From assembly GCA_035548815.1 (NCBI GenBank), contig DASZSF010000004.1:57261-121260 (forward strand): a DNA stretch of 64,000 nt, written 5' to 3'. The stretch is from Minisyncoccota bacterium. GTDB taxonomy: Bacteria; Patescibacteriota; Minisyncoccia; Phycocordibacterales; SBAW01. Under the pieces are notes generated by a model. That model was not told the origin of the DNA. It made no database searches and was given only the letters and a program-made list of their open reading frames with translations. Shown here piece after piece: positions 12,317 through 38,777 of this stretch. The number at the start of each line of letters is the position of its first letter. Position 1 is the first letter of the stretch. Made by a program: the position numbers and the translations under genes.

Positions 12317-14626
12317 CTAGGGCTTCAGAGTACCGTTTTGAATTTGAGTTATGACGCTCTGGATCTGTGATGCGAGCGATGGATTTAGTTGTGCCGCGCG
12401 GTTAAGTTCGGCAATAGCGTTTGTTTTATCACTTGCGGTGAAATACGCAGCGGCGAGGCCAAGATGCGCTTGCGCATCGTTCGGAGCCGCTTCAACGCGT
12501 AACTTCCAAATACCGACAACGCGATCGTACTGTTTAGTGTTTACATAGACTTGAAGGAGACGTGCATCATTTACGAGCACGGTGCCAAATCCATCTTTGA
12601 GCAATGCGTCGGCAGCGCTTCCCTGGCCGGCATAGTAGAGACCAGCGGCATACAGAATCCGAGCATCAGAATATGCTGGCTCCATGTCGAATGCCTGCTT
12701 GAGTATCGGAATCGCCTGATCTTTCTGGCCAGCGTTCAGATACGTAACGCCAATTTCAAACAGCACCTGCTGTTTTTGAGGCGAATGCGAATGAGCCTGG
12801 GCGAGTATTTCAAGCGCCTGAGGATACTGGCCGAAGCTATCAAGGAATGCCCCGTCGAAAAGTTCAAGGCGCGCATCATTTTTGCGCTGCTGCATGACGG
12901 CATCTACTGCATTTTGCGCTGCAACAAGCGTGTCTTGTTTGACCGATGGGTCAACGCTGGTTGATGCGGCAATGGTTGAGGCGTACTGCAAAAATTGCTC
13001 TGCCACTTCCTGGCGGCCCATGTCAGTGCCAGGCCATGTGTTATTTCCAAACGCCGTTTTAAAGTCGGCCAGACGTGTCTTGCCATCTTTTGCCTGTGCA
13101 ACAAGAGTCCCGTCGCTGTTTGGGACAGCAACTTGCGGTGTCAGCGCAGTGAGGATATTCTCTGCCCGAGCCATGCCCGGCACGTTCGCAGCCCAAACAA
13201 GGAGGATGGCTAGAACGCCGACAATAGGCGCTGCAATAGCAATTCCCTGGTCGCTTACAGGGCGAGCAAGCCCCGCAAAGCGCGGCGGTTTTTGCGCAAA
13301 GAGCGAGTGAGCGAATGCTAATATAAGAAAGAAGTACACGGAGCTCATGAGGTCATCGAACACAAACAGGTTGTTGAATCCGTACGCAGCAAGCGCGCCC
13401 ATGAGTATTGCTTGCTCAGGCTCTGCCAGTGAAGATCGCATAATGCTCCATGCAGCGAGCAAGAAGAATGAAATGTAGAGCAAGAACGCAGGAAGACCAC
13501 CGGCAATGAGCCAGTCGAGGAACTGGTTGTGCGCGCGGTCGAACCACTGCTCCTGGTTGTACATTTCCGGAGAGTAATATTTGTTGAAGACGAAGTTAAA
13601 GTTTTCCTGACCCCATCCTACGATAGCTGTTTTCGGGCTTTCAAATGACCCTTTGATAGCCATAGGCCATATATAGAAGAGGCGCGCTTTCGTTGTTGTG
13701 TCTTCAAGTGAAATAGAGCTGATGCGGCCGATGGTCGAGGGAGCGTTTTGGAGTAGTGATGTGCTGCGCAATGCAACGAAGCCAATCACAAGCGCCGCAA
13801 TGATACCAAGACCTATCCACGACGCACGGCGCATGCTGTGCCACTGCTGGCCACGCGCTTTCCAAATTATATAGAGAGCGGCAACAATGAGACCGCCTAT
13901 AAGCCCAAGGAACGAACCGCGCGTTTCGGTAAAGTAGAGAGTCGCGACCTCAAGCACGAGCGCAATACCGTACAGTACTTGTGCAGCTGTCGATTGACGC
14001 TGGCGAAACAACATGAAAAGCGTCAGGAAGACGTTCCAGAGCATGAACACAGCCAAGTAGGTCGCATTGCCGAAGGTGCCGTCAACACGGCTGCCGCTTT
14101 GTGAACTTATCGGGAACAGGTTCGCGAATTGGAGCATTGAATACACACCCATAAGCGCGCCTGACGTTATAGAAATTTGGAACAATCTGTTCCACCAATT
14201 TTCTGCTGTTACAACCGTCCCAACAATGTAGAAATAGACAAGGAAGTGCAGGATCGTCATATACCCTTCCATGCGTTCGAAGTTGCTCCAGAAGCTCTTC
14301 GCTGGGTCAACGCTCAAAACCGTTGCGAGCGCCATCCATCCAACGAACGCCAGTACTGCCCACGAAAGCATCGATGCGCGCGGTCGGTATTTTGGTTCGC
14401 GGAGCGCGAGCAACACATATGCACCAAGCATCAACTCCACCACGATCCGGAACATAAAGTTCTTGCCCGTGATGAATGGGAAGTACATGCCTGCAAACGG
14501 AATGTAGAGGTTGGCATGCGCCGTGTTTTGATACCCTGCCCCGCCGTCGGCGATAATAAATGGAACAAAGAAAATCAGCGCGGAACCCACAAGGAGCGCC
14601 CAGCGCAAAAAGCGTGTATACGACAT
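12317..14626 (-). CDS. O-antigen ligase/polymerase family (Wzy_C domain) polytopic membrane protein with C-terminal TPR repeats; candidate O-oligosaccharyltransferase
   Basis: About 770 aa; more than 10 TM helices with a large external loop, TPR-like C-terminus (ALEILAQA...GVTYLNAGQKDQAIPILKQAFDMEP...AELNRAAQLNP). Start taken at ATG 14626 (MSYTRFLRW) rather than the track's 14671, to avoid overlapping fcl. Confidence 0.8.
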   Translation of the reverse strand: MSYTRFLRWALLVGSALIFFVPFIIADGGAGYQNTAHANLYIPFAGMYFPFITGKNFMFRIVVELMLGAYVLLALREPKYRPRASMLSWAVLAFVGWMALATVLSVDPAKSFWSNFERMEGYMTILHFLVYFYIVGTVVTAENWWNRLFQISITSGALMGVYSMLQFANLFPISSQSGSRVDGTFGNATYLAVFMLWNVFLTLFMLFRQRQSTAAQVLYGIALVLEVATLYFTETRGSFLGLIGGLIVAALYIIWKARGQQWHSMRRASWIGLGIIAALVIGFVALRSTSLLQNAPSTIGRISSISLEDTTTKARLFYIWPMAIKGSFESPKTAIVGWGQENFNFVFNKYYSPEMYNQEQWFDRAHNQFLDWLIAGGLPAFLLYISFFLLAAWSIMRSSLAEPEQAILMGALAAYGFNNLFVFDDLMSSVYFFLILAFAHSLFAQKPPRFAGLARPVSDQGIAIAAPIVGVLAILLVWAANVPGMARAENILTALTPQVAVPNSDGTLVAQAKDGKTRLADFKTAFGNNTWPGTDMGRQEVAEQFLQYASTIAASTSVDPSVKQDTLVAAQNAVDAVMQQRKNDARLELFDGAFLDSFGQYPQALEILAQAHSHSPQKQQVLFEIGVTYLNAGQKDQAIPILKQAFDMEPAYSDARILYAAGLYYAGQGSAADALLKDGFGTVLVNDARLLQVYVNTKQYDRVVGIWKLRVEAAPNDAQAHLGLAAAYFTASDKTNAIAELNRAAQLNPSLASQIQSVITQIQNGTLKP

Positions 14627-14634
14627 ACGCGATA

Positions 14635-15600
14635 CTATACCACACCCGGGCTTTGGTGTTGCCGCCACCATTCTATGGTTCGGCGCAGTCCCTCTTCAAA
14701 GCCAGTGTGCGCTCGAAAGCCGAATTCCTTCTCCGCCCGGGAGACATCGAGCATGCGGCGGGGCTGGCCGTCCGGTTTTGTGCTGTCCCAGCGTATCTCC
14801 CCCGTAAAATCCATCAACCGGGCTATACGTTCCATCAGATCTTTTATAGAAATTTCCATTCCTGATCCGAGGTTGACCGGTTCCGGCTTTTCGTAAGACT
14901 TCGTCGCACGCACAATGCCTTCCGCGGCATCGTCTACATATAGAAATTCGCGCGTCGGGGTTCCCGTCCCCCATGCCTCTATATATAGAGCATTACTTCG
15001 TATCGCATCTTCCACTTTGCGGATGAGCGCGGGAATAACGTGAGATGAAGCCGGATCAAAATTATCGCCCGGCCCATAGAGATTCGCCGGCATAAGATAT
15101 ATGCCGTCGAAACCGTATTCATCCCTATATGCCTCTGACTGTACAAGAAGCATCTTCTTTGCCAAGCCGTATGGCGCATTCGTTTCCTCTGGATATCCCT
15201 CCCATAAGGATTCTTCTTTGAACGGCACCGGTGTAAATTTCGGATACGAACAGACCGTGCCTATCGTTACAAATTTCTGCACACCCGCCTCACGCGCCGA
15301 TTCCATAAGCTGGATGCCCATGATGGCATTTTCATAAAAAAATCTTCCTGGATGTTCGCGGTTTGCGCCAATGCCTCCCACGACCGCGGCCAAATGGATC
15401 ACGACATCTCGGCCTTCCACGGCGCGTTTCGCGCCTTCAGCTGTGCGAAGATCGCACTCATTCGAACGCGGTATAAAAATATTCTGCTCCGGCACTCCTT
15501 TTGCAATAAGTGCGCGAACGACAGCCCTTCCCAAAAATCCTGCGCCGCCCGTGACAGTGATTTTTTTATCGCGTAACTCCATATCGTTTAAGCTCCTCAT
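14635..15600 (-). CDS. fcl: GDP-L-fucose synthase (GDP-4-keto-6-deoxy-D-mannose 3,5-epimerase/4-reductase)
   Basis: 321 aa; [11 protein letters not shown] Rossmann, ...NAPYGLAKK..., strong resemblance to Fcl/WcaG. Confidence 0.9.
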
Positions 15601-37646: not shown

Positions 37647-37664
37647 GAATAAATCGTATCGCCT

Positions 37665-38777
37665 TTAAGACAGAGCGGCAAAGGCCTCCTCGTTCATACG
37701 GCGCGCCACAATATCCCAATCATACTGGGCGGCGAGCGCTTTCGCCCGTGCAGCAATTGCAGCGCGTTCATCTGCATGTAGAAGCGCGCGAGTAACTGCC
37801 GCCGCAATGTTTTTTGGATTATCAACTTCTGCAACATACCCCGTCTCGCCATCTTTCAGAAAATCCGGAATGCCCCCAACGTGTGTACCGATAATCGGAA
37901 GTCCTGCAGCCATCGCTTCGATAAATGCATTTCCCATTCCCTCTGATCGGCTCGGACGAATAAAAATGTCAGCCCGCTCCAGAAATTGAGGCAGTTCTCT
38001 GTGGTCGATATGTCCTACAAATTCTACGCGGCTAGCAACCCCTGCCGTTTGCGCAAGCTCTTTGAGCATTACTTCATCAGGCCCAGTTCCTGCAACTTTG
38101 AAACGCACTGTTTCTGGCAGCAATGCTAGCGCGCGAATTACATCATCGACTGCATTTTTATGTACGAGGCGGGAGGCAGTCACAAGTACAATTCCTTCAT
38201 GCTCCACGCGCGATACCGAAAAATGCGCGAGATCTACACCATTTGGAATGATATGAACAGGCCCTTGATAGCCAGCATGTTTTGCCCAGGTTCCCAAAAA
38301 ATTTGAAATGGCGGTGATTGAACGGGCGCGCATGAAACCATACGACAAAAGTGGCGCGAAGAATTTAATGTACCAGCGCTCAAAGACATGTTCGAACGGG
38401 TCCCCTTCTTGGAGGGTCAGAATATATGGAACATGCACGCCAAAAAGTATTCGAAGTAGCGCAATGGGAAACGTCATGTACGACATCATCGCCCACATCC
38501 CATCAAAATGTTGTACACTGAGCGTCCGCGCTCGAAGTACTGCACGTGGAATAAATAGAACCTTCGAAAGATACGATGCGCCGCTCCCAACACGGTACAC
38601 GTGCACGCGGCCGACTATTTCTTCCATCGGTTCGTCCTGGCTCCACCGCATGGTGACCATATGGAACTCGATGTTGGGCAGGCGGTCAGTGATCTCTTTT
38701 ATTGCCACTTCAGCACCGCCAACATGCGGGTAGTAGGCCAAGGAAAATATCAGTATTTTCTTCTTTTGTTCGGGCAT
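37665..38777 (-). CDS. GT4 family glycosyltransferase
   Basis: 370 aa; ...TASRLVHKNAVD...VAGTGPD...PSRSEGMGNAFIEAMAAGLPIIGTHVGGIPD... Confidence 0.85.
   Translation of the reverse strand: MPEQKKKILIFSLAYYPHVGGAEVAIKEITDRLPNIEFHMVTMRWSQDEPMEEIVGRVHVYRVGSGASYLSKVLFIPRAVLRARTLSVQHFDGMWAMMSYMTFPIALLRILFGVHVPYILTLQEGDPFEHVFERWYIKFFAPLLSYGFMRARSITAISNFLGTWAKHAGYQGPVHIIPNGVDLAHFSVSRVEHEGIVLVTASRLVHKNAVDDVIRALALLPETVRFKVAGTGPDEVMLKELAQTAGVASRVEFVGHIDHRELPQFLERADIFIRPSRSEGMGNAFIEAMAAGLPIIGTHVGGIPDFLKDGETGYVAEVDNPKNIAAAVTRALLHADERAAIAARAKALAAQYDWDIVARRMNEEAFAALS

What the first reader, a model, noticed from the sequence alone, without database searches (positions are those of the whole stretch)
12317..38777. 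About 25-kb fucose-containing, methyl-capped, ABC-exported glycan / protein O-glycosylation locus resembling Gram-positive S-layer glycosylation (slg) clusters
The gene content is:
- Wzy_C(O-antigen ligase)+TPR membrane protein
- fcl, gmd
- wzm; GT-C-like membrane protein; GT2+GtrA; wzt with C-terminal extension
- GT10 FucT; epimerase; oxidoreductase fusion; HlpA-like GT; SAM-MTase; GT2-MTase fusion; GT11 FucT; GT2
- then, on the other strand, GT4, FkbM-MTase, SAM-MTase and five more GT4
Many gene junctions overlap (ATGA), indicating operons. A monoderm CPR-like cell has no lipid A for a WaaL-type ligase. The Wzy_C+TPR protein is therefore more plausibly a protein O-oligosaccharyltransferase (PglL/PilO/WsaB are Wzy_C family). 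In Geobacillus S-layer glycosylation the pathway is also WbaP-like initiator, GTs, a methyltransferase-GT fusion (WsaE) that caps the chain, Wzm/Wzt export with a cap-binding Wzt C-domain, and a Wzy_C OTase. Every one of these roles has a candidate here, and the giant surface protein and pilins in the window are natural acceptors. A fucosylated, methylated glycan coat on a CPR-like cell has not, to my knowledge, been characterised.
Basis: partly seen in the sequence, partly recalled or inferred. Interest (0 to 1): 0.8.

Follow-up and report, generated by a model that had tools for sequence, protein, structure and literature searches.

The report
Variable surface-glycan island beside conserved ligase
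A tiny uncultured (CPR/Paceibacteria) bacterium carries a real 25-kb gene island for a fucose-containing, methylated surface sugar chain, next to a glycan-attaching enzyme conserved across its lineage; what that enzyme attaches the sugar to is still unknown.

Summary

- The Wzy_C-TPR gene is a lineage-wide core gene, 50-76% identical and always followed by murB-secA.
- The DNA on its other side is a hypervariable glycan island, about 2 kb in one relative and 25.5 kb here.
- The missing initiator (WbaP-like, 58.6 kb) sits in a second conserved module, ftsW-GT4-WbaP-epimerase-folD-secDF.

The system is therefore a conserved start, a variable middle and a conserved ligase.

The protein O-glycosylation reading is possible but not shown:
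- Wzy_C ligases in monoderms can also load glycolipids (TacL).
- The PglL-specific motif was not detected.
- The match to the Wzt cap-binding domain is sub-threshold.

Verdict: a known kind of pathway in a new setting, with an uncharacterised ligase variant.

The parts
12317..14626 (-). Wzy_C-TPR ligase-type membrane enzyme (769 aa from M16): 13 TM helices, large outer loop 287-367 containing the conserved WFDRAHN motif, and a TPR domain (515-764) predicted to lie outside the cell
14635..15600 (-). fcl, GDP-L-fucose synthase
   Evidence: Pfam Epimerase 4.5e-54. NCBIfam GDPFucSynFcl 8.7e-86, which is below the equivalog cut-off.
15566..16570 (-). gmd, GDP-mannose 4,6-dehydratase
   Evidence: Pfam GDP_Man_Dehyd 1e-138.
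16655..17473 (+). wzm, ABC-2 permease
   Evidence: Pfam ABC2_membrane 2.7e-17. A 78%-identical homologue lies next to wzt in L061.
17477..19336 (+). GT-C fold glycosyltransferase (619 aa), predicted to use a polyprenyl-phosphate sugar donor; no Pfam or NCBIfam family of its own
19339..20370 (+). GT2 fused to GtrA: polyprenyl-phosphate sugar synthase plus putative flippase domain
   Evidence: Pfam Glycos_transf_2 1.1e-14 and GtrA_DPMS_TM 9.3e-12. The best NCBIfam hits, both below cut-off, are PpgS 1.4e-21 and AglJ 5e-20.
20375..21646 (+). wzt, ABC ATPase with a C-terminal extension of about 165 aa
   Evidence: Best PDB match is the full-length ABC-transporter chain 8dku, E 7.7e-68, with the alignment reaching residue 332. 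NCBIfam TagH and galactan Wzt. The C-domain alone matches Pfam Wzt_C at E 2e-4, 21.8 bits, below the 30.4 cut-off.
21661..22743 (+). GT10-type fucosyltransferase
   Evidence: Pfam Glyco_transf_10 5.2e-14.
22740..23591 (+). short SDR epimerase/reductase (283 aa); specificity unknown
   Evidence: Pfam Epimerase 4.7e-20. Only weak NCBIfam hits to Fcl and RmlB C-terminal parts.
23588..25600 (+). Gfo/Idh/MocA sugar dehydrogenase fused to an FAD oxidoreductase
   Evidence: Pfam GFO_IDH_MocA 7e-23 plus DAO 8.4e-12. NCBIfam UDP-GlcNAc 3-dehydrogenase 8.3e-28, below cut-off. Corrected start.
25603..26463 (+). GT-A-like glycosyltransferase of a large family that has no Pfam model
   Evidence: No Pfam or NCBIfam hit. 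10270 representative homologues. Two relatives match Glycos_transf_2 weakly, one also GNT-I very weakly, and others are fused to MTases, GT4, GT9 or TPR.
26468..27391 (+). SAM methyltransferase
   Evidence: Pfam Methyltransf_23 2.6e-20.
27366..29021 (+). GT2 with a C-terminal methyltransferase domain (fusion)
   Evidence: Pfam Glycos_transf_2 2.8e-28, DUF268 4.5e-14, Methyltransf_11 4.7e-5.
29034..29831 (+). GT11-type fucosyltransferase
   Evidence: Pfam Glyco_transf_11 2.1e-27. Found together with gmd and/or fcl in L061, L066 and L070.
29816..30835 (+). GT2 glycosyltransferase
   Evidence: Pfam Glycos_transf_2 1.9e-34.
30807..38777 (-). Minus-strand operon: GT4 (37665-38777), GT4 (36570-37646), GT4 (35689-36573), GT4 (34641-35684), GT4 (33577-34644), methyltransferase (32936-33580), FkbM methyltransferase (32094-32939), GT4 (30807-31913)
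   Evidence: Pfam Glycos_transf_1/Glyco_trans_1_4 hits from 1e-14 to 8e-37, Methyltransf_11 3.5e-9, Methyltransf_21 1.4e-17. Four ATGA junctions.
38800..40176 (-). PKD-domain surface protein with an N-terminal signal-like segment, a C-terminal TM anchor and S/T/A/Q-rich linkers. It is island cargo and a candidate acceptor (speculative).
   Evidence: Pfam PKD_4 6.9e-12. Sequence and TM segments. No homologue was detected in the one relative (L010) where both island flanks are visible.
57507..61002 (.). Conserved initiation module outside the finding: SDR epimerase/dehydratase (57507-58583, -), WbaP-type polyprenyl-phosphate sugar-1-phosphate transferase (58593-59966, -), GT4 (60034-61002, +)
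   Evidence: Pfam Bac_transf 1e-49. NCBIfam EPS_sugtrans 4.1e-80, full length. Synteny ftsW-GT4-WbaP-epimerase-folD-secD-secF recurs across 80 metagenome loci.

Best explanation
The locus is the strain-variable middle part of a three-part surface-glycan system shared by Paceibacteria (CPR).

Proposed pathway:
1. A conserved WbaP-type phosphoglycosyltransferase, with its neighbouring epimerase and GT4 (57.5-61 kb, next to ftsW), starts a glycan on undecaprenyl phosphate. This step is inferred.
2. Island enzymes extend the chain in the cytoplasm. These are gmd and fcl for GDP-L-fucose, GT10 and GT11 fucosyltransferases, six GT4, two GT2, one GT-A-like GT and four methyltransferase domains. The product would be a fucosylated, O-methylated heteroglycan. 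The gene functions are shown by homology; the glycan structure is inferred.
3. Wzm/Wzt exports the lipid-linked chain. A possible Wzt_C domain may read a terminal modification, but that evidence is weak.
4. Outside the membrane, a GT2-GtrA synthase makes a polyprenyl-phosphate sugar, and a GT-C enzyme adds it as a side branch. The folds are shown; the acceptor is inferred.
5. The conserved WaaL-fold Wzy_C enzyme transfers the finished chain from undecaprenyl diphosphate to a conserved extracytoplasmic acceptor. Its catalytic loop and TPR domain are both predicted to face outward.

My estimates for the acceptor: protein (S-layer, pilin or other surface protein) about 0.4; membrane glycolipid about 0.3; another acceptor, or no role for this enzyme, for the rest.
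For: Family and fold assignments.

Operon structure: three tightly packed transcription units with six ATGA overlaps, including gmd-fcl-Wzy_C-murB on one strand.

The ligase is a core gene:
- More than 4117 homologues, the best 120 at 51-76% identity over nearly full length.
- 286 confirmed matches in a one-genome-per-species collection.
- murB follows on the same strand in 57/57 loci where it was found, and secA was found in 52/80.

The other side of the ligase gene is variable but glycan-rich:
- A Pfam census of 149 ORFs upstream of the gene in 16 genomes is led by methyltransferases (14), epimerases (11), GT4 (10), GT2 (9), GMD (8), FkbM (8), Wzx-type Polysacc_synt (7) and cytidylyltransferases (4).
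- 41/46 loci have at least one ORF similar to a window glycan gene.
- A locus with none (L048) still carries a sugar dehydratase, a weak TagF-like hit and a cytidylyltransferase.

Both island flanks are seen in L010 (TP-methylase, VirD4, epimerase, GT4, Wzy_C, MurB, SecA). The island is about 2 kb there against 25.5 kb here.

Signs of exchange between lineages:
- L061 shares wzm at 78% and gmd at 79%, but Wzy_C at only 54% and MurB at 53%.
- GC content inside the island ranges from 0.47 to 0.59.

The initiator module is conserved: WbaP is 52-72% identical in 80 loci with fixed neighbours.

The arginines and histidine expected of WaaL/PglL enzymes are invariant (R236, R315, H366 in 769-aa numbering; roles from PMC3643930).

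The TPR domain is almost as conserved as the membrane domain, 53% against 59% mean identity.
Against: - Nothing links the WbaP module, the island and the ligase biochemically. Adjacency to the ligase could simply mark a recombination hot spot.
- The Wzt_C match is below Pfam's cut-off, and no kinase or coiled-coil terminator of the WbdD type was seen.
- The PglL_A model was not hit.
- A truncated profile and the single sequence failed to re-find WaaL by sequence. Residue equivalence with WaaL therefore rests on motif and spacing, not on an inspected alignment.
- Thirteen glycosyltransferases are many for a single ABC-exported polymer. The island may encode more than one product.
- The rest of the genome (LCP ligases, S-layer genes, other initiators) could not be examined.
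Confidence: 0.6

Rival explanations
1. The Wzy_C-TPR protein is a PglL/WsaB-type protein O-oligosaccharyltransferase, and the locus is an S-layer or pilin glycosylation cluster. The TPR domain selects protein acceptors.
For: - The parts list parallels slg clusters: wzm/wzt, a GT-methyltransferase fusion, a Wzy_C enzyme and a WbaP-type initiator in the window.
- The TPR domain is predicted to lie outside the cell, on the same side as the catalytic loop.
- Its closest natural structural relatives are protein-binding TPRs such as that of O-GlcNAc transferase.
- Candidate acceptors are encoded nearby: a PKD surface protein with S/T-rich linkers inside the island, and two type IV pilins next to the initiator module.
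- Pilin glycosylation has been predicted but not tested in another CPR group (PMC11623550).
Against: - The PglL-specific Pfam model PF15864 was not hit.
- Sequence cannot separate O-OTases from ligases (PMC3643930).
- The gene is not next to pilin or S-layer genes. It sits next to murB in 57 of 80 related loci.
- The pilins beside the initiator are specific to this window.
- TPR domains also act as scaffolds in polysaccharide export and cell-wall enzyme complexes; the hits include NlpI, PilF/PilW and BcsC/PgaA-type models.
Confidence: 0.4
2. The Wzy_C-TPR protein is a TacL-like ligase that attaches the exported polymer to a membrane glycolipid. The result is a lipoglycan or lipoteichoic-acid-like coat whose polymer part varies between strains.
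For: - TacL sets the precedent for a Wzy_C ligase with a glycolipid acceptor in a monoderm (PMC5727136).
- The enzyme, especially outer loop 104-121 (14/18 positions at least 95% conserved), is very conserved while the glycan genes vary. This fits a single invariant small acceptor.
- One related island carries teichoic-acid-type genes: a weak Glyphos_transf hit and a cytidylyltransferase.
- Fixed association with murB, secA and, for the initiator, ftsW/secDF suggests a housekeeping envelope role.
Against: - TacL has no TPR domain, and none would be needed to find a lipid in the same membrane.
- No glycolipid-anchor synthase was identified in the window.
Confidence: 0.3
3. The adjacency is coincidental. 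The island makes a capsule, exopolysaccharide or wall polysaccharide that is released or attached by another enzyme such as an LCP-type enzyme. The Wzy_C-TPR protein has a separate conserved job.
For: - Glycan genes vary on one side of a core gene, as expected for an insertion hot spot.
- 5/46 loci show no ORF similar to window glycan genes within 10 kb.
- ABC-exported cell-wall polymers in Gram-positives are usually attached by LCP enzymes (established knowledge).
Against: - gmd, fcl and Wzy_C are co-directional with 8-nt and overlapping junctions.
- Glycan families dominate the upstream side in 16 diverse genomes, and they appear even in a 'no-hit' locus.
- A ligase-fold enzyme needs a lipid-linked glycan donor.
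- No LCP gene was seen among the ORFs scanned in the window.
Confidence: 0.15
4. The Wzy_C-TPR protein is a Wzy/TuaE/SscD-type polymerase of repeat units, not a ligase.
For: - Pfam Wzy_C also covers polymerases.
- Seven of 149 upstream ORFs, drawn from 16 related islands, are Wzx-type flippases, and such pathways normally need a polymerase.
- A Gram-positive Wzy_C homologue is predicted to be a polymerase (PMC11841062).
Against: - Polymerases are repeat-unit specific and highly variable (abstract of PMC12502699, listed). This protein stays 50-76% identical while the glycan genes change.
- This island uses an ABC transporter, a route that needs no Wzy.
- The best structural match is WaaL, covering 359 of its 403 residues.
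Confidence: 0.07

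Closest known systems
ABC-transporter-dependent O-polysaccharide pathways (E. coli O8/O9a, Klebsiella O2a/O12): Wzm/Wzt, terminator WbdD, ligase WaaL
   Same: - Cytoplasmic synthesis on undecaprenyl diphosphate by many GTs.
- Wzm permease and a Wzt ATPase with a C-terminal extension.
- Methyltransferases that could terminate chains.
- A WaaL-fold enzyme for the last step.
- Optional three-component side-branch addition, as in Klebsiella (PMC11127046).
   Different: - No lipid A-core acceptor is expected in a CPR monoderm.
- The initiator is WbaP-type and unlinked.
- No WbdD-like kinase or coiled coil was found.
- The Wzt_C match is sub-threshold.
- The ligase carries an extra TM helix and a 285-aa extracellular TPR region.
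S-layer glycosylation (slg) cluster of Geobacillus stearothermophilus NRS 2004/3a (WsaP, WsaC-F, WsaE, Wzm/Wzt, WsaB). Recalled from my own knowledge, not tested here.
   Same: - Monoderm setting.
- WbaP-type initiator and Wzm/Wzt export.
- A methyltransferase-glycosyltransferase fusion.
- A Wzy_C-family final transferase.
- NDP-6-deoxyhexose genes.
   Different: - No S-layer gene was identified.
- The domain order of the fusion is GT then MT here.
- Fucose replaces rhamnose.
- There is an added GT-C/GT2-GtrA pair.
- The transferase has a TPR domain and is a lineage-wide core gene next to murB.
- No direct sequence comparison with Wsa proteins was possible.
TacL (RafX), lipoteichoic acid ligase of Streptococcus pneumoniae
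   Same: A Wzy_C-family membrane enzyme in a monoderm, proposed to move a finished polymer from its undecaprenyl diphosphate carrier to an acceptor outside the membrane (PMC5727136).
   Different: TacL is 397 aa with no TPR domain, and its acceptor is a glycolipid. Its polymer is a Wzx-flipped teichoic acid (my own knowledge). No sequence test against TacL was done here.
PglL/PilO general O-glycosylation of Neisseria, Acinetobacter and Burkholderia
   Same: A conserved Wzy_C transferase with relaxed glycan specificity serves variable glycan gene sets. The catalytic Arg/Arg/His set is shared (PMC3643930).
   Different: The PglL_A motif (PF15864) was not detected. The gene is not adjacent to pilin genes. 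The host is a monoderm, and the enzyme has a TPR domain.
Extracytoplasmic decoration of ABC-exported cell-wall polysaccharides: mycobacterial PpgS/Rv3779 beside the galactan Wzm/Wzt, streptococcal GacI/GacL, and Gtr three-component systems. The gene pairings are my own knowledge.
   Same: A GT2 polyprenyl-phosphate sugar synthase (best NCBIfam match PpgS), a GtrA domain and a GT-C transferase are placed between wzm and wzt.
   Different: The GT-C enzyme belongs to a rare family without a Pfam model. The sugar and the acceptor are unknown. In actinobacteria a similar pair (Ppm1/Pmt) O-mannosylates proteins instead, which is not excluded here.

Membership tests
WaaL/PglL/TacL ligase-type Wzy_C enzymes | Wzy_C (PF04932) domain | tested here: met
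   E 2.4e-16, 60.3 bits against a cut-off of 31.7, residues 237-400 of the 784-aa ORF.
WaaL/PglL/TacL ligase-type Wzy_C enzymes | WaaL-type 12-TM fold with a large extracytoplasmic loop before TM10 | tested here: met
WaaL/PglL/TacL ligase-type Wzy_C enzymes | Conserved Arg, Arg and His (E. coli WaaL R215, R288, H338) | tested here: inconclusive
   R236, R315 and H366 are invariant in 66 sequences, with spacing of 79 and 51 residues against 73 and 50 in WaaL. No residue-level alignment to WaaL was inspected, and searches failed to retrieve WaaL.
PglL-type protein O-oligosaccharyltransferases | PglL_A motif (PF15864), which separates PglL from WaaL | tested here: not met
   No hit at E <= 0.01 in the Pfam scan. 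The model was built from Gram-negative PglLs (PMC3643930), so absence is weak evidence.
PglL-type protein O-oligosaccharyltransferases | Transfer of glycan to Ser/Thr/Tyr of a protein | not testable with these tools
   Needs glycoproteomics or reconstitution.
ABC-transporter-dependent polysaccharide pathway with cap-recognising Wzt | Wzm ABC-2 permease plus Wzt nucleotide-binding domain | tested here: met
   ABC2_membrane 2.7e-17 and ABC_tran 1e-23. PDB ABC-transporter chain 8dku at 7.7e-68. TagH and galactan Wzt NCBIfam hits.
ABC-transporter-dependent polysaccharide pathway with cap-recognising Wzt | Wzt C-terminal carbohydrate-binding domain (PF14524) | tested here: inconclusive
   E 2e-4, 21.8 bits, below the 30.4 cut-off, covering profile positions 9-121 of 143. 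The alignment to the 404-residue chain 8dku runs beyond the nucleotide-binding part. The C-domain alone finds nothing in the PDB or the protein database.
ABC-transporter-dependent polysaccharide pathway with cap-recognising Wzt | Dedicated chain terminator (WbdD-like methyltransferase/kinase, or a capping GT) | not testable with these tools
   Four methyltransferase domains are present and no kinase was seen. Which of them, if any, caps the chain cannot be told from sequence.
Three-component extracytoplasmic glycosylation (GtrB/GtrA/GT-C) | GT2 polyprenyl-phosphate sugar synthase | tested here: met
   Glycos_transf_2 1.1e-14. Best NCBIfam matches are PpgS 1.4e-21 and AglJ 5e-20, both below their cut-offs.
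Three-component extracytoplasmic glycosylation (GtrB/GtrA/GT-C) | GtrA-type flippase component | tested here: met
   GtrA_DPMS_TM 9.3e-12, fused to the synthase at residues 225-338.
Three-component extracytoplasmic glycosylation (GtrB/GtrA/GT-C) | GT-C fold transferase | tested here: met
S-layer glycosylation (slg) cluster | S-layer protein as demonstrated or adjacent acceptor | not tested
   No S-layer gene was recognised among the window ORFs scanned. The rest of the genome was not available.
S-layer glycosylation (slg) cluster | WbaP/WsaP-type initiating phosphoglycosyltransferase within the cluster | tested here: not met
   The only Bac_transf gene found is at 58593-59966, 20 kb away, in a separately conserved module.

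The most novel reading that the evidence does not exclude
Paceibacteria (CPR) have a lineage-wide general surface-glycosylation system. A conserved WbaP module starts the glycan, and a conserved WaaL-fold transferase attaches it. That transferase is a new subclass of O-oligosaccharyltransferase whose extracellular TPR domain picks out protein acceptors such as S-layer proteins, pilins or adhesins. Between start and finish, a hypervariable, horizontally exchanged glycan island gives each strain its own coat, here fucosylated and methylated. The likely pressure is from phages and from recognition by host bacteria.
Probability: 0.35. Interest if true: 0.75.

Novelty: new variant of a known kind. 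Interest (0 to 1): 0.55.

Why it matters
CPR/Patescibacteria are a large share of bacterial diversity. All cultivated members live attached to other microbes, yet their surface chemistry is essentially unstudied. A 2024 study of Saccharibacteria pili calls their glycosylation processes unexplored (PMC11623550), and full-text searches found no paper on CPR Wzy_C enzymes.

The genomic layout found here has three parts:
- a conserved initiator module,
- a conserved ligase with an outward-facing TPR domain,
- a hypervariable island between fixed flanks.

This layout is the monoderm-CPR counterpart of an O-antigen locus, and it makes the question concrete and testable. One well-defined enzyme family can be expressed with known lipid-linked donors to find its acceptor. 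The variable island gives a marker for strain-level surface diversity, phage pressure and host recognition. A relaxed-specificity transferase from this family could also be useful for glycoengineering.

Tried and rejected
Searches that gave nothing:
- Single-sequence PDB searches for the 619-aa protein and the GT-A-like protein.
- The Wzt C-domain alone against the PDB and against the protein database.

Searches that misled or failed:
- The N-terminal domain alone and an 11-sequence truncated profile did not recover WaaL by sequence. I could therefore not print a residue-level alignment of the catalytic residues.
- One Pfam call failed on wrong frame coordinates for the giant ORF.

Literature searches for CPR glycan ligases or Wzy_C-TPR fusions found nothing relevant.

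Readings considered and rejected:
- An ordinary Gram-negative O-antigen locus. The organism is a Paceibacterota MAG, and the ligase family was found only in Patescibacteria-labelled records, apart from a few 'bacterium' records and one Bacteriovoracaceae-labelled MAG contig (L044) that gave the same hits as L045.

Full report
**1. Observation**

Pfam gives the following:
- Wzy_C (2.4e-16) followed by TPR repeats
- GDP-mannose 4,6-dehydratase (1e-138)
- an Fcl-type epimerase
- ABC-2 permease
- GT2 fused to GtrA
- an ABC ATPase
- GT10
- an SDR epimerase
- a Gfo/Idh/MocA-FAD oxidoreductase fusion
- a SAM methyltransferase
- a GT2-methyltransferase fusion
- GT11
- GT2
- on the other strand, six GT4, one FkbM methyltransferase and one further methyltransferase

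NCBIfam adds several names. The fcl-like gene matches GDP-L-fucose synthase (8.7e-86). Wzt matches TagH and galactan Wzt. The GT2-GtrA protein matches the polyprenyl-phospho-GalNAc synthase PpgS and the archaeal AglJ.

With corrected start codons almost all same-strand junctions are tight, from -35 to +22 nt. The exception is a 180-nt gap before the last GT4. Six junctions are ATGA overlaps. The genes form three transcription units:
- gmd-fcl-Wzy_C-murB on the minus strand;
- wzm to GT2, twelve genes on the plus strand;
- VirD4-like, PKD protein, five GT4, two methyltransferases and a GT4 on the minus strand.

**2. The two uncertain assignments and Wzt**

The 'HlpA-like' protein really starts at 25603. 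It has no Pfam model but belongs to a family with 10270 representative clusters. Two relatives tested match GT2 weakly, one of them also GNT-I very weakly. Others are fused to methyltransferases, GT4, GT9 or TPR repeats. A GT-A-type glycosyltransferase is therefore likely but not proven.

Wzt matches a 404-residue full-length ABC-transporter chain (8dku) at 7.7e-68, and the alignment runs past the ATPase domain. Its C-terminal 169 residues alone match Pfam Wzt_C at E 2e-4, which is below the curated cut-off. A cap-reading domain is plausible, not established.

**3. Organism**

An identical protein is recorded from a 'Candidatus Paceibacterota bacterium' MAG. The window also holds a bacterial 16S rRNA gene. 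Related loci come from Adlerbacteria, Nomurabacteria, Kaiserbacteria and other Paceibacteria. That these organisms lack LPS is established knowledge about CPR, not something tested here.

**4. The Wzy_C-TPR protein**

The structure is well predicted:
- The model is confident (pLDDT 88.7, pTM 0.85).
- A sequence profile also reaches WaaL (E 2.6e-5).

The topology puts the TPR domain outside the cell:
- Counting helices and applying the positive-inside rule places the N-terminus inside.
- The 81-residue loop with the invariant WFDRAHN motif lies outside.
- A thirteenth helix, absent from WaaL, carries the 285-residue C-terminal region with the TPR repeats to the outside.

The catalytic residues appear to be present. 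R236, R315 and H366 are invariant, and their spacing resembles that of the Arg/Arg/His set shared by WaaL and PglL (PMC3643930). I could not print a residue-level alignment, so this equivalence is inferred.

The TPR region is nearly as conserved as the membrane domain, 53% against 59% mean identity to the window protein. It has 36 near-invariant positions. The short outer loop 104-121 is the most conserved stretch of all.

**5. Context across genomes: the main new result**

The family is large and uniform. It has more than 4117 homologues of about 750 aa, and the best 120 are 51-76% identical over almost the full length. There are 286 confirmed matches in a collection holding one genome per species.

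Downstream synteny is fixed. In 80 fetched loci the gene is followed on the same strand by murB in all 57 loci where murB was found, and by secA in 52. Most of the misses are short contigs.

The upstream side varies, but it is dominated by glycan genes:
- A Pfam census of 149 ORFs from 16 diverse genomes is led by methyltransferases, epimerases, GT4, GT2, GMD, FkbM, Wzx-type flippases and cytidylyltransferases.
- 41 of 46 loci have at least one ORF resembling a window glycan gene.
- One locus with none still carries a sugar dehydratase, a weak TagF-like hit and a cytidylyltransferase.

Both flanks are visible in one relative, L010. Its order is TP-methylase, VirD4-like (82% identical), epimerase, GT4, Wzy_C, MurB, SecA. 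The island is about 2 kb there and 25.5 kb here.

Two observations point to exchange of island modules between lineages. L061 shares wzm at 78% and gmd at 79%, but Wzy_C at only 54%. GC content within the island swings between 0.47 and 0.59.

**6. The initiator**

The only phosphoglycosyltransferase found in the window is a full-length WbaP-type enzyme at 58593-59966, 20 kb outside the finding. A metagenome scan returned 80 loci with 52-72% identical proteins. Nearly all keep the same order: orf199, ftsW, GT4 (opposite strand), WbaP, epimerase, folD, secD, secF. The two type IV pilin genes that lie between this GT4 and ftsW in the window are not at this position in the other loci.

Start and finish of the pathway are thus conserved core genes, each beside cell-wall, division or secretion genes. 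The middle is variable.

**7. Mechanism**

The best-supported model has five steps:
1. WbaP, with its epimerase and GT4, primes undecaprenyl phosphate.
2. Island glycosyltransferases and methyltransferases build a fucosylated, methylated chain in the cytoplasm.
3. Wzm/Wzt exports it.
4. The GT2-GtrA/GT-C pair adds a side branch outside the membrane.
5. The Wzy_C-TPR enzyme transfers the chain to an acceptor.

The enzyme families and folds are shown. The order of steps, the glycan structure, the link between the three modules and the acceptor are inferred.

**8. The acceptor**

- TacL is a Wzy_C enzyme described as the putative ligase that loads a glycolipid in a monoderm (PMC5727136).
- Wzy_C homologues predicted to be polymerases exist in Gram-positives (PMC11841062).
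- The PglL-specific Pfam model was not hit, though it was built from Gram-negative sequences.

For a protein acceptor:
- the TPR domain faces outward on the catalytic side;
- it resembles substrate-binding TPRs such as those of OGT;
- a surface protein with S/T-rich linkers is encoded inside the island.

For a lipid or wall acceptor:
- the enzyme is extremely conserved;
- it sits in a housekeeping neighbourhood;
- one related island carries teichoic-acid-type genes.

Conservation in the face of changing glycan genes argues against a polymerase role. My estimates are protein 0.4, glycolipid 0.3, unrelated adjacency 0.15 and polymerase below 0.1.

**9. Comparison and novelty**

The pathway is a recognisable ABC-transporter-dependent glycan system. 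It has Gram-positive and mycobacterial-style extracytoplasmic decoration, and a parts list overlapping slg clusters.

The new elements are:
- the setting, CPR, where surface glycosylation is uncharacterised (no relevant papers);
- the ligase variant, a WaaL fold with an extra helix and an external TPR domain, conserved lineage-wide;
- the genomic layout of conserved ends and a hypervariable middle.

Public annotation calls the protein only 'O-antigen ligase family protein'. I rate it a new variant of a known kind, with interest 0.55.

Noticed in passing
window 48869-51654: The 16S rRNA gene (50193-51654, minus strand) is followed by tRNA-Ile (49907-49982) and tRNA-Leu (48869-48952). No 23S rRNA was detected anywhere in the window, so the rRNA genes appear unlinked.
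   Followed up: no
window 2-3298 (minus strand): A giant ORF of at least 1099 aa runs off the left end of the window. It has two N-terminal HTH_17 domains, then an A/T/S/G/N-rich region with no family match. The first 2 kb of the window has 62.6% GC against about 52% elsewhere.
   Followed up: partly
window 60999-62095 (minus strand): Two type IV pilin genes (GFTLIE motif, Pfam N_methyl) sit between the conserved GT4 and ftsW. No pilin homologue was found at this position in the 80 related metagenome loci, so the pair looks like a local insertion beside the glycan initiation module.
   Followed up: partly
window 40163-42061 (minus strand); L010 6233-7867: A VirD4/TrwB-like coupling ATPase forms the far flank of the island. 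It is 82% identical in an Adlerbacteria genome, more conserved than SecA (73%) or the ligase (58%) in the same comparison.
   Followed up: no
window 25603-26463: This protein belongs to a very large family (10270 clusters at 50% identity) with no Pfam or NCBIfam model. Members are often fused into proteins of 1000-2000 aa carrying methyltransferase, GT4, GT2, GT9 and TPR domains.
   Followed up: partly
window 17477-19336: The GT-C enzyme belongs to a rare family (91 homologues found) with no family model. Its more distant members (about 26-34% identical) carry source names from Chloroflexi/Anaerolineae, a planctomycete (Calycomorphotria) and Actinomycetota.
   Followed up: partly
L027 and L045 (contigs CAYHDT010000003 and CAYHDT010000009): One MAG carries two Wzy_C-TPR genes on different contigs. 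This could be a paralogue pair or bin contamination. L045 gave the same hits, at the same coordinates, as L044 from a differently labelled MAG of the same study.
   Followed up: no
L048 4757-5338: A PaaX_M/Cas2-like protein is encoded inside the glycan region upstream of the ligase gene in Adlerbacteria GW2011_GWA1_54_10. It lies next to a split transketolase pair and a cytidylyltransferase.
   Followed up: no
window 44861-46980: A Mur-ligase-family gene is followed by a FemAB/Acetyltransf_6-like gene. This suggests peptidoglycan side-chain or cross-bridge synthesis genes close to the island.
   Followed up: no
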